Assembly: GCA_041658605.1 (NCBI GenBank)
Contig: JBAZZU010000003.1
Location: 23,354-87,353 of the forward strand
Length of the DNA: 64,000 bases
Origin: Thermoleophilia bacterium
GTDB taxonomy: Bacteria; Actinomycetota; Thermoleophilia; BMS3ABIN01
Reading direction: 5' to 3'
The stretch's first letter is position 1, and every line of letters starts with the position of its first letter. A program made the position numbers and the translations under genes. The notes under the pieces were generated by a model. That model did no database searches. It worked only from the letters and a program-made list of their open reading frames with translations, and was not told where the DNA came from. Positions 57,199 to 57,626 of the stretch are shown here, in pieces.

Positions 57199-57576
57199 CT
57201 ACTCCTTCACGATCGCACCGGATTCCCGGAGCATCCGGGCGGCGGCGGCGAGGGTGACCGTGGAACCGCTCCGATCGCATCGCAGTTCCGACTGCCCGAT
57301 GGTGGTTGGCGCGGCTTCGACGAGGTTCTTGGCCTCCATGAGACCGATGCCGGTCAACTCGCGGATCGCCTTGATGACGTTGATCTTGTTCTCGCCCCAT
57401 GAGACGAGGAGGATCGCGTCGCCGGGAATGGGCACGTCCATCTTGGAGAGAGTCGCGGTCTTCTCTGCGATGGCGCCGCGGAGTATCTCCGCTCGCGTCA
57501 ACGCATCGCGGCCGATCCGCTCCAGTTCCTCCGCTCTCGCGCGGAGTACTTCGATTTCCTGTTTCAATCGTTCCAT
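57199..57576 (-). CDS. Ribosomal protein bL12 (L7/L12) C-terminal-domain homolog
   Basis: [30 protein letters not shown]...RESGAIVKE aligns with E. coli L7/L12 CTD ([29 protein letters not shown]...EEAGAEVEVK). Strong SD AAGGAAG. Confidence 0.6.
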   Translation of the reverse strand: [125 protein letters not shown]

Positions 57577-57597
57577 GTTTCACTTCCTTTCCTCTCT

Positions 57598-57626
57598 GTC
57601 ATACCCGGTTAGCGAGAGTCTGTCAA
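57598..57626 (-). promoter_or_regulatory. Sigma70-type promoter upstream of the bL12-like gene
   Basis: Perfect -35 TTGACA, 17-nt spacer, -10 TATGAC on the minus strand, ~20 nt upstream of the start. Confidence 0.45.

What the first reader, a model, noticed from the sequence alone, without database searches (positions are those of the whole stretch)
57199..57626. Phage-encoded ribosomal protein bL12 (L7/L12) C-terminal-domain homolog behind a near-consensus promoter
Unambiguous similarity to the factor-binding CTD of L7/L12 ([28 protein letters not shown]). The N-terminal region looks like a diverged helical dimerisation part without the usual hinge. A TTGACA-17-TATGAC promoter and strong SD sit directly upstream. 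Viral bL12 copies have been reported in metagenomic surveys but remain functionally untested. Candidate roles are translation hijacking or a decoy for EF-G/EF-Tu/IF2.
Basis: partly seen in the sequence, partly recalled or inferred. Interest (0 to 1): 0.7.

Follow-up and report, generated by a model that had tools for sequence, protein, structure and literature searches.

The report
Phage bL12 factor-binding domain on coiled coil
A phage early gene encodes the translation-factor-binding domain of ribosomal stalk protein bL12 joined to an unrelated coiled-coil helix instead of the ribosome anchor; it is a rare new member of an already described class of phage "bL12-domain" proteins whose function is still unknown.

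Summary
Window 57199-57576 (minus strand) is a real 125-aa gene. Residues 54-125 are a complete bL12 C-terminal domain (Pfam PF00542, E 9.6e-15; hhalign 99.4% against 30 cellular bL12). The window is a phage: terminase, portal, capsid, baseplate, helicase, ThyX.

It is not a bona fide ribosomal bL12. The uL10-binding N-terminal domain is absent (no PF16320 hit; hhalign 0.13%). It scores 48 bits against the 84.4-bit cut-off of the NCBIfam bL12 equivalog. Residues 1-45 are instead one predicted heptad-patterned helix, followed by an 8-residue linker.

The factor-binding helices 4-5 are the best conserved part (dN/dS 0.14; whole gene 0.26). Only two full-length relatives turned up among 5.8 billion proteins. 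They sit among unrelated genes but share the TTGACA-containing upstream element, so the gene behaves as a mobile cassette. The -10 hexamer is weak, and such promoter matches are no more frequent in the window than chance.

NTD-less phage bL12-domain proteins were described by Mizuno et al. 2019, who tested one for ribosome association with equivocal results.

Most likely mechanism (inferred): an off-ribosome, oligomeric display of the stalk's factor-binding domain that intercepts translational GTPases or other stalk-captured proteins. This is a new member of a known kind, of moderate interest.

The parts
57199..57576 (-). CDS of the 125-aa protein (identical to GenBank MFA5801248.1, named 'MAG: ribosomal protein L7/L12 [Thermoleophilia bacterium]')
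   Evidence: ORF list. The same gene is called on the Logan copy of the contig. Exact match in the protein collection. dN/dS against the L001 orthologue is 0.26.
57442..57576 (-). Residues 1-45: a predicted single long alpha-helix with a heptad (coiled-coil) pattern. The a/d positions are L4 I8 L11 A15 L18 G22 A25 A29 L32 I36 K39 L43 M46. It is not homologous to the bL12 NTD.
   Evidence: AF2 gives helix 2-45. The best model has pLDDT 87, but the other four models score 49-59. No PF16320 hit. hhalign against the bL12 NTD plus hinge gives probability 0.13%. Most a/d residues are invariant in the 3 family members. dN/dS is 0.21.
57418..57441 (-). Residues 46-53 (MDVPIPGD): a short Pro-rich linker in place of the Ala/Gly/Pro/Glu-rich bL12 hinge
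   Evidence: AF2 assigns no secondary structure to residues 46-53. Alignment with cellular bL12 shows the hinge columns are gapped.
57202..57417 (-). Residues 54-125: a complete bL12 C-terminal domain (beta-alpha-alpha-beta-alpha-beta)
   Evidence: Pfam PF00542, E 9.6e-15. hhalign 99.4% over residues 54-123. AF2 elements E54-60, H64-75, H79-87, E91-94, H109-118, E121-124. Foldseek matches 1ctf and 8phj_W.
57307..57396 (-). Residues 61-90 ([30 protein letters not shown]): helices 4-5, the translational-GTPase-binding face of bL12. This is the most conserved part of the protein.
   Evidence: 25 of 30 positions are invariant among the three family members. dN/dS is 0.14 for residues 54-90. 16 positions in this segment are invariant across 36 sequences that include cellular bL12. 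The role of helices 4-5 is taken from PMC6753160.
57256..57276 (-). Residues 101-107 (DRSGSTV): a family-specific insertion before the last helix of the C-terminal domain
   Evidence: hhalign gap and MAFFT alignment. The insertion is absent in P0003.
57580..57592 (-). Shine-Dalgarno-like GGAAAGGAAGTGA, ending 3 nt before the ATG
   Evidence: Sequence. GGAG-type SD at the equivalent place in L001 and L002.
57598..57603 (-). Candidate -10 hexamer TATGAC (4 of 6; lacks the T at position 6)
   Evidence: Sequence. Not called by the sigma-70 scan. The equivalent hexamers in the relatives are CAGATT and CATGTT, so only A at position 2 is shared.
57612..57635 (-). Conserved block GGAATCGCG-TTGACA-GACTCTCGC containing a perfect -35 hexamer (57626..57621)
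   Evidence: Conserved in the window, L001 and L002 although the flanking genes differ. It lies in the largest intergenic gap of the gene run.
56849..57196 (-). Context only: a 115-aa gene starting 2 nt after the target's stop, with GGAG 7 nt upstream, so probably translationally coupled. No family match. Not linked to the L12-like gene in other loci.
   Evidence: Sequence. No Pfam, PHROG or NCBIfam hit. Its only homologue, P0270 in L119, is preceded by an ORF with a different C-terminus.

Best explanation
This is an accessory gene in the early/replication region of a large tailed phage. The region also encodes a helicase, an HTH regulator, a sliding clamp and ThyX.

The product joins a ~45-residue coiled-coil helix, through an 8-residue linker, to a complete bL12 C-terminal domain. 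That domain is the module through which the ribosomal stalk captures IF2, EF-Tu, EF-G and RF3. The protein lacks the N-terminal domain that anchors bL12 to uL10.

My preferred mechanism is as follows. The protein self-associates through the coiled coil. It therefore presents two or more stalk-type factor-binding domains off the ribosome. In that form it competes with the host stalk for translational GTPases or for other proteins captured by the stalk C-terminal domain. The effect would be to modulate host translation or stalk-dependent processes early in infection.

Shown here: the gene is real, it lies in a phage, the domain architecture, the absence of the NTD, conservation of the helix 4-5 face, purifying selection on both halves, and cassette-like mobility with its own upstream element.

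Inferred, not shown: oligomerisation, binding of GTPases, an off-ribosome location, and the physiological effect.
For: - C-terminal domain identity: Pfam E 9.6e-15, hhalign 99.4% over the full domain, and the fold match to 1ctf and 8phj.
- Binding face retained: target K64, I65, I68, K69, R72, L79, E81, K83 align with E. coli K65, V66, I69, K70, R73, L80, E82, K84. Helices 4-5 are the trGTPase site (PMC6753160; Kothe 2004 and Helgstrand 2007 as cited). Residues 61-90 have 25 of 30 positions invariant in the family and the lowest dN/dS, 0.14.
- No ribosome anchor: no PF16320 hit; hhalign N-terminus against NTD gives 0.13%; the NCBIfam bL12 equivalog scores 48 against a cut-off of 84.4, while a real bL12 scores 158. 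bL12 contacts the ribosome only through NTD-uL10 (PMC3299993).
- N-terminus: one helix, residues 2-45, with a continuous a/d heptad. It is under purifying selection, dN/dS 0.21.
- Independent expression and mobility: the TTGACA block and SD are conserved in three loci whose neighbouring genes are unrelated. L119 keeps the downstream genes, and the ORF immediately upstream of them there does not end like the L12-like protein.
- Free L7/L12 can act on EF-G off the ribosome (Savelsbergh 2000, cited).
Against: - There is no experimental evidence for this protein or its two relatives.
- To my knowledge, binding of isolated bL12 C-terminal domains to GTPases is weak and transient (NMR work of Helgstrand 2007). 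A stoichiometric sink would therefore need very high expression. Oligomerisation gives no avidity for monomeric factors.
- Conservation of [12 protein letters not shown] is also seen in non-ribosomal multi-CTD proteins, including one with a signal peptide. It may therefore partly reflect folding constraints rather than GTPase binding.
- The AF2 model rests on a 3-sequence alignment and only one of five models is confident. A helical hairpin broken at G22 cannot be excluded.
- The N-terminus could bind uL10 or host bL12 in a way that sequence comparison cannot detect.
- K81 of E. coli is Met in the target, although it is Arg or Lys in the relatives.
Confidence: 0.4

Rival explanations
1. Stalk replacement. 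The helical N-terminus binds the C-terminal helix of host uL10, or heterodimerises with host bL12. The phage protein would then be built into the ribosomal stalk and retune factor recruitment for phage mRNAs.
For: - Total length (125 aa) equals that of cellular bL12.
- The N-terminus is helical and has a possible break at G22 that could give a two-helix hairpin.
- MAFFT lays it over the bL12 NTD with some similar hydrophobic spacing.
- Mizuno et al. detected one peptide of another phage bL12-domain protein in high-salt 70S.
Against: - No detectable NTD homology.
- It fails the bL12 equivalog cut-off.
- AF2 predicts a single helix twice as long as the NTD helices.
- The 8-residue linker is much shorter than the hinge that gives the C-terminal domain its reach.
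- pI is 6.4 against about 4.6 for E. coli bL12.
- In Mizuno et al., affinity purification of ribosomes carrying the tagged phage bL12 failed.
Confidence: 0.2
2. Anti-defence decoy. The soluble C-terminal domain soaks up host immune or toxin proteins that must be captured by the bL12 stalk to reach the ribosome. The type III CRISPR effector Cami1 (CARF-RelE) is an example. Translation would be protected during infection.
For: - The stalk C-terminal domain is a documented docking site for Cami1. PDB 8phj, 'cA4-bound Cami1 in complex with 70S ribosome', has an L12 chain that is among the best structural matches. Cami1 cleaves mRNA at the A site (PMC11229360). An L12-mediated interaction is noted in PMC12179292.
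- A plant RIP also depends on the L12 stalk to act on E. coli ribosomes (PMC12737465, listed).
- The gene is an early-region accessory cassette with its own promoter-like element and a patchy distribution. To my knowledge, that pattern is typical of anti-defence genes.
Against: - There is no evidence that the host has Cami1 or any stalk-dependent effector. The host itself is unknown; the Thermoleophilia assignment comes only from MAG binning.
- The Cami1-contacting residues could not be checked because the primary paper is not held.
- No literature proposing this role was found.
Confidence: 0.12
3. Generic interaction module. The L12-C-terminal-domain fold is reused as a protein-protein adaptor unrelated to translation, tethered by the coiled coil to a phage replication or regulatory complex.
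For: - PF00542 domains occur in 2-8 tandem copies in many non-ribosomal proteins. Fusion partners include LRV repeats, a Ser/Thr kinase with FGE-sulfatase, MopE, Zn ribbons and a signal peptide.
- They also occur in at least 22 NTD-less viral proteins with unrelated N- or C-terminal parts.
- The gene lies among replication and regulatory genes, not translation genes.
Against: - Identity to genuine bL12 in helices 4-5 is very high, up to about 70% over residues 55-93. This argues for the ancestral partner set.
- No partner is suggested by conserved gene neighbourhood, because the neighbours differ in every locus.
Confidence: 0.2
4. A recently captured host gene fragment with no function in the phage.
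For: High similarity of the C-terminal domain to cellular bL12. Very rare family, with 3 members.
Against: - dN/dS is 0.26 at dS 0.56, with purifying selection on both halves.
- The start codon, SD and upstream element are conserved in three diverged loci.
- The novel N-terminus is conserved.
Confidence: 0.03

Closest known systems
Cellular ribosomal protein bL12 (L7/L12; rplL)
   Same: Complete C-terminal domain with the helix 4-5 factor-binding face. About 56% identity over 63 aligned columns to a bL12 profile. Same overall length.
   Different: - No uL10-binding or dimerisation NTD (PF16320) and no Ala/Gly-rich hinge.
- 7-residue insertion before the last helix.
- Near-neutral pI.
- Phage early-region context rather than the rplJ-rplL operon.
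- Fails TIGR00855.
Phage-encoded bL12-domain proteins (Mizuno et al. 2019, Nat Commun 10:752). Examples: Ralstonia phage RSB3 (98 aa), Dinoroseobacter phage DFL12phi1 (106 aa), Salmonella phage FSL SP-076 (418 aa).
   Same: - A Ribosomal_L12 (C-terminal) domain on a phage genome, in variable architectures and genomic contexts.
- EF-binding residues conserved.
- Under purifying selection.
- Apparently acquired independently.
- Weak PHROG matches, e.g. phrog_26927 at E 6.5e-7.
- 22 of 35 IMG/VR loci I retrieved look NTD-less by eye. The 10 I scanned all hit PF00542 and none hits PF16320.
   Different: - Higher identity to cellular bL12 than the 30-40% reported for cultured phages.
- Specific coiled-coil N-terminus, with only two full-length relatives.
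- No close relative in GenBank phages or IMG/VR.
- Conserved promoter-like element travelling with the gene.
Non-ribosomal multi-copy L12-CTD proteins of bacteria (uncharacterised)
   Same: Same Pfam domain used outside the ribosome and without the NTD.
   Different: Those carry 2-8 tandem copies and other domains (LRV, kinase, MopE, Zn ribbon, signal peptide). The target has a single copy behind a coiled coil and is phage-borne.
ClpS (N-degron adaptor), the structural relative of the L12 C-terminal domain
   Same: Related alpha/beta fold. ClpS chains appear low in the Foldseek list.
   Different: Foldseek E > 0.3, with 9-15% identity. No sequence-level match in Pfam. Not a ClpS.
Phage morons (promoter-gene-terminator cassettes)
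   Same: An accessory gene with its own promoter-like element, found among unrelated neighbours in different phages.
   Different: No terminator follows the gene, and the next gene starts 2 nt after the stop.

Membership tests
Bona fide ribosomal protein bL12 (rplL) | C-terminal factor-binding domain (Pfam PF00542) | tested here: met
   E 9.6e-15, 55.1 bits against a 25.9 cut-off. hhalign 99.4% over residues 54-123.
Bona fide ribosomal protein bL12 (rplL) | N-terminal two-helix dimerisation and uL10-binding domain (Pfam PF16320) | tested here: not met
   No hit at E <= 1. The full-length hhalign does not extend into the N-terminus. hhalign of residues 1-53 against the NTD plus hinge gives probability 0.13%. 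AF2 predicts a single helix, residues 2-45.
Bona fide ribosomal protein bL12 (rplL) | Flexible Ala/Gly/Pro/Glu-rich hinge of about 12-20 residues between the domains | tested here: not met
   Only the 8-residue MDVPIPGD is present. The hinge columns are gapped in the alignment with 33 cellular bL12.
Bona fide ribosomal protein bL12 (rplL) | Whole-protein score above the curated equivalog cut-off (NCBIfam TIGR00855) | tested here: not met
   48.0 bits against a cut-off of 84.4. The cellular bL12 P0004 scores 158.
Bona fide ribosomal protein bL12 (rplL) | Encoded next to rplJ (uL10) in the cellular ribosomal-protein operon | tested here: not met
   The neighbours are a phage helicase, an 82-aa ORF, a 115-aa ORF and an HTH regulator.
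Bona fide ribosomal protein bL12 (rplL) | Stoichiometric component of the 50S stalk | not testable with these tools
   Needs ribosome co-sedimentation and mass spectrometry.
Phage-encoded bL12-domain proteins (Mizuno et al. 2019) | Encoded on a viral genome | tested here: met
   TerL, portal, major head protein, baseplate wedge and tail lysin, plus a phage replication module, in the same window.
Phage-encoded bL12-domain proteins (Mizuno et al. 2019) | Significant Ribosomal_L12 domain with conserved EF-Tu/EF-G-contacting residues | tested here: met
   K64, I68, K69, R72, L79, E81 and K83 align with E. coli K65, I69, K70, R73, L80, E82 and K84. The E. coli numbering is from PMC6110070 and my own knowledge.
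Phage-encoded bL12-domain proteins (Mizuno et al. 2019) | Purifying selection on the viral copy | tested here: met
   dN/dS 0.26 overall, 0.14 for residues 54-90 and 0.21 for the N-terminus, measured against the L001 orthologue.
Phage-encoded bL12-domain proteins (Mizuno et al. 2019) | Association with host ribosomes or translation factors | not testable with these tools
   Only one family member (FSL SP-076) has been tested in the literature, with an equivocal result.
Moron (autonomous promoter-gene-terminator cassette) | Own promoter | tested here: inconclusive
   The -35 is perfect and conserved in 3 loci. The -10 is weak and not called by the scan. Site frequency in the window equals chance.
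Moron (autonomous promoter-gene-terminator cassette) | Own terminator | tested here: not met
   No terminator-like site lies between the stop at 57199 and the next start at 57196. The nearest minus-strand site is at 56957.
ClpS adaptor family | Sequence or fold match to ClpS better than to bL12 | tested here: not met
   ClpS chains have Foldseek E 0.3-2 and 9-15% identity, against bL12 at E 8.5e-5 and 38% identity.

The most novel reading that the evidence does not exclude
The protein is a phage anti-defence decoy. It would be a soluble, coiled-coil-multimerised copy of the ribosomal stalk's capture domain. It would intercept host effectors that must dock on bL12 to reach the ribosome, such as the type III CRISPR CARF-RelE nuclease Cami1 or other stalk-dependent toxins. 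More broadly, the many NTD-less bL12-domain proteins of phages would form a family of 'stalk mimics'.
Probability: 0.1. Interest if true: 0.8.

Novelty: new member of a known kind. Interest (0 to 1): 0.4.

Why it matters
Phage proteins carrying the bL12 factor-binding domain are recurrent but have no established function. This example is unusually clean. It has a single, complete, highly bL12-like C-terminal domain. It provably lacks the ribosome anchor. It has a simple coiled coil instead. It also moves between phages together with its own upstream element.

That makes it a good minimal test case for one question: do such proteins work on the ribosome (stalk remodelling) or off it (sequestering translational GTPases or stalk-dependent defence effectors)?

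A positive result for an off-ribosome decoy would define a new mode of viral interference with translation or immunity. If the protein merely joins the stalk, it would extend the Mizuno et al. picture.

Tried and rejected
- tblastn against 50,697 GenBank phage records found only CTD-length matches. Most are genuine rplL on records that are host contigs or contaminated. There was no full-length relative.
- An IMG/VR scan with family-specific peptides (VSWGENK and the N-terminal motif) found no relative.
- A search with the N-terminal 54 residues alone found no candidate, so no other protein family sharing this coiled coil could be identified.
- The scan of species-representative genomes returned only CTD matches to cellular rplL from mixed phyla: Chloroflexota, Proteobacteria, CPR, Planctomycetota. 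The donor lineage and host remain unresolved.
- The promoter was tested as a statistical signal. It is not enriched over shuffles, and the extended motif TTGACAGAnTCT occurs only once in the window.
- The ClpS reading is rejected.
- The classical moron reading is rejected for lack of a terminator.
- A functional link to the translationally coupled 115-aa downstream gene was considered. It is not supported. The gene has no family. The L001 neighbours are unrelated. Its only homologue, in L119, follows an ORF with a different C-terminus.
- I did not re-run AF2 on the deeper alignment A5. There MAFFT forces the coiled coil onto the bL12 NTD columns, so any hairpin prediction would be circular.
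- The primary Cami1 paper and Savelsbergh 2005 could not be read.
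Full report
**1. The observation**

Window 57199..57576 on the minus strand is an ATG-to-TAG ORF of 125 aa. An independent gene caller called the same ORF on a public copy of the contig.

The protein is identical to GenBank MFA5801248.1. That record is named 'MAG: ribosomal protein L7/L12 [Thermoleophilia bacterium]' and sits on a 96.7-kb contig. The similarity has therefore already been noticed by automatic annotation, although not in a phage context.

The evidence for the bL12 match:
- It hits Pfam Ribosomal_L12 (PF00542, the C-terminal domain) at E 9.6e-15, 55.1 bits against a gathering score of 25.9.
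- It hits solved bL12 chains at E down to 1.4e-10.
- The Pfam alignment covers only residues 55-95. A profile-profile comparison of the three family members with 30 cellular bL12 extends the homology over residues 54-123. That is the entire domain, with a 7-residue insertion at 101-107 before the last helix (probability 99.4%, E 5e-21).
- An AF2 model has the expected beta-alpha-alpha-beta-alpha-beta order. Foldseek returns bL12 C-terminal domains first: 1ctf at TM 0.78 and 8phj_W at TM 0.86, normalised to the target.
- The AF2 model is limited. It comes from a 3-sequence alignment; the best model has pLDDT 87, and the other four score 49-59.

**2. It is a phage gene**

On the + strand the window carries a terminase large subunit (2..1609), portal (2799..4508), major head protein (26425..28026), a tail protein with a lysin domain and a baseplate wedge subunit.

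On the minus strand it carries a DNA helicase (57893..59875), DNA methyltransferase, ThyX, a DUF5131/radical-SAM pair and an HTH regulator. A sliding clamp lies just beyond the window. A tRNA-Ala(TGC) lies at 52850..52921.

The target lies between the helicase (plus an 82-aa ORF) and a 115-aa ORF that starts 2 nt after its stop codon.

**3. It is a real, selected gene**

Only two full-length relatives were found among 5.8 billion clustered proteins:
- P0002, 77% identity, on a 3.9-kb JGI contig (L001).
- P0003, 73% identity, on a 1.3-kb ENA contig (L002). It carries a 55-residue in-frame insertion right after the fourth codon.

An exhaustive HMM search of 1.84 billion representatives added only P0258. 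This 133-aa protein shares the same C-terminal-domain variant (HWG...; TLAEAAKMLREAGA) behind a different N-terminus.

Against the L001 orthologue (80% nucleotide identity, dS 0.56), dN/dS values are:

| Region | dN/dS |
|---|---|
| Whole gene | 0.26 |
| Residues 1-53 | 0.21 |
| Residues 54-90 | 0.14 |
| Residues 91-125 | 0.48 |

**4. What it is not**

bL12 is attached to the ribosome only through its N-terminal two-helix domain. That domain dimerises and binds uL10, and a flexible hinge then gives the C-terminal domain its reach (PMC3299993).

The target departs from this on every point:
- It has no PF16320 match.
- The full-length hhalign does not extend into the N-terminus.
- A dedicated hhalign of residues 1-53 against the NTD plus hinge of 30 bL12 gives probability 0.13%.
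- The hinge is replaced by MDVPIPGD.
- The NCBIfam bL12 equivalog TIGR00855 scores 48.0 bits against a cut-off of 84.4. A cellular bL12 scores 158.
- The calculated pI is 6.4, against about 4.6 for E. coli bL12 (the E. coli sequence was supplied from memory).

It should therefore not be filed as ribosomal protein bL12.

**5. The N-terminal half**

AF2 predicts one helix spanning residues 2-45. Hydrophobic residues fall on a continuous 3-4 spacing: L4 I8 L11 A15 L18 G22 A25 A29 L32 I36 K39 L43 M46. Most of these positions are invariant among the three relatives.

That is the signature of a coiled coil, and Ile at 'a' with Leu at 'd' favours a parallel dimer (my inference). A break at G22 (Ala in P0002) giving a hairpin cannot be excluded.

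No other protein sharing this segment could be found.

**6. The binding face**

The bL12 C-terminal domain binds IF2, EF-Tu, EF-G and RF3 through a conserved, positively charged site on helices 4 and 5 (PMC6753160; Kothe 2004 and Helgstrand 2007 as cited there).

In the target this segment (residues 61-90) has 25 of 30 positions invariant among family members. It is up to about 70% identical to cellular bL12.

Target K64, I65, I68, K69, R72, L79, E81 and K83 align with E. coli K65, V66, I69, K70, R73, L80, E82 and K84. E. coli K81 is Met in the target but Arg or Lys in the relatives.

One caveat applies. The same [12 protein letters not shown] motif is kept in non-ribosomal multi-CTD proteins. 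Part of this conservation may therefore be structural.

**7. Upstream signals and mobility**

The elements are TTGACA (57626..57621), a 17-nt spacer, TATGAC (57603..57598), and the SD-like GGAAAGGAAGTGA (57592..57580) ending 3 nt before the ATG.

Evidence against a promoter:
- The -10 lacks the T at position 6, so the tool's scan does not report the site.
- Sites with at least 10 of 12 matches occur 3 times in the window against 3.1 +/- 1.6 in shuffles.

Evidence for a promoter:
- The 71-nt gap that holds the motif is the largest in a ~14-kb run of about 30 mostly overlapping genes.
- The block GGAATCGnGTTGACAGAnTCTyGC is conserved upstream of the gene in L001 and L002. This holds even though none of the other L001 genes has a homologue anywhere in the window.

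In the reverse direction, the only homologue of the 115-aa downstream gene (L119) keeps the downstream HTH synteny. The ORF ending just upstream of it has a different C-terminus.

The L12-like gene therefore behaves as an accessory cassette that moves with its own upstream element. There is no terminator behind it, so it is not a classical moron.

**8. Comparison with what is known**

Mizuno et al. 2019 (PMC6375957) reported Ribosomal_L12 domains in seven cultured phages and in many viral contigs. Their main points:
- The domains are usually embedded in otherwise unrelated proteins and sit in varied genomic contexts.
- They are 30-40% identical to cellular bL12, with EF- and uL11-contacting residues kept.
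- One protein (FSL SP-076, 418 aa) yielded a single peptide in high-salt 70S, but tagged ribosomes could not be purified.

My IMG/VR scan with a CTD profile returned 35 loci. By eye, 13 are NTD-bearing and 22 are NTD-less with diverse partners. One of the latter (L107) has a coiled-coil N-terminus. All ten NTD-less proteins I scanned pass PF00542 and none hits PF16320.

The target is therefore a new, rare member of a described class. It is distinguished by a complete and unusually bL12-like domain, a simple coiled coil, and a conserved upstream element.

**9. Mechanism**

I favour an off-ribosome model, at confidence about 0.4. Coiled-coil oligomers would display stalk-type capture domains that compete with the host stalk for translational GTPases or other stalk clients.

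Arguments for the model:
- The anchor is absent.
- The binding face is preserved.
- Free L7/L12 is known to act on EF-G (Savelsbergh 2000, cited).

The main argument against is that C-terminal-domain-to-factor interactions are weak, to my knowledge, so a sink would need high expression.

The rivals are:

| Rival | Confidence |
|---|---|
| Stalk incorporation through a non-canonical N-terminus | 0.2 |
| A translation-unrelated adaptor role, suggested by the promiscuity of the domain | 0.2 |
| An anti-defence decoy for stalk-captured effectors such as Cami1 | 0.12 |
| A non-functional captured fragment | 0.03 |

The Cami1 idea came from the Foldseek hit to PDB 8phj (Cami1 biology). The non-functional reading is disfavoured by dN/dS.

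**10. Verdict**

- Novelty: a new member of a known kind.
- Interest is moderate (0.4). The class is known and the gene is already auto-annotated. This minimal architecture is nevertheless a good experimental handle on an unresolved question.

Noticed in passing
window 52850..52921 (-): A phage-encoded tRNA-Ala (anticodon TGC) lies in the early region. It is a second translation-related element in the same phage.
   Followed up: no
database proteins P0121-P0263: Many non-ribosomal proteins carry 2-8 tandem bL12 C-terminal domains. Fusion partners include LRV/HEAT repeats, a Ser/Thr kinase with FGE-sulfatase, MopE metal-binding repeats, Zn ribbons, a uL10 domain and, in one case, a signal peptide. 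Their function is unknown. They show that the domain is a widely reused module.
   Followed up: partly
L001:1000-1093 and L002:600-680: A ~75-nt leader is conserved between the shared TTGACA element and the L12-like gene in both relatives. It contains the hairpin CACGG-AAAG-CCGTG. L002 also has about 300 nt of extra sequence carrying a possible small ORF. The window lacks all of this, so its promoter-like element directly abuts the SD.
   Followed up: partly
L002:681-1208 (P0003): One family member has a 55-residue in-frame insertion directly after the first four codons (MDRL|HIIFDG...DIEA|LKSEI). This adds a probable small beta-rich domain in front of the coiled coil. It has no match in the window.
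   Followed up: partly
window 53348..55152 (-): Adjacent DUF5131 (phage Gp37/Gp68-like; Pfam E 9e-76) and radical-SAM genes lie downstream in the same transcription direction. This is a recurrent phage gene pair of unknown function.
   Followed up: no
window 18522..24224 (+): A 1900-aa ORF lies in the structural module. It was not examined.
   Followed up: no
window 56849..57196 (-): A 115-aa ORF starts 2 nt after the target's stop. It has no Pfam, PHROG or NCBIfam match and only one homologue in 5.8 billion proteins (P0270, 54% identity). Its contig, L119, keeps the downstream HTH synteny.
   Followed up: yes
L107:447-851 (IMG/VR UViG_3300032893_000024): Another viral protein (134 aa) combines an N-terminal heptad-repeat segment (RVRELENRVRELESRV) with only helices 4-5 of the bL12 C-terminal domain. 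The coiled-coil-plus-L12-motif architecture may therefore have arisen more than once.
   Followed up: partly
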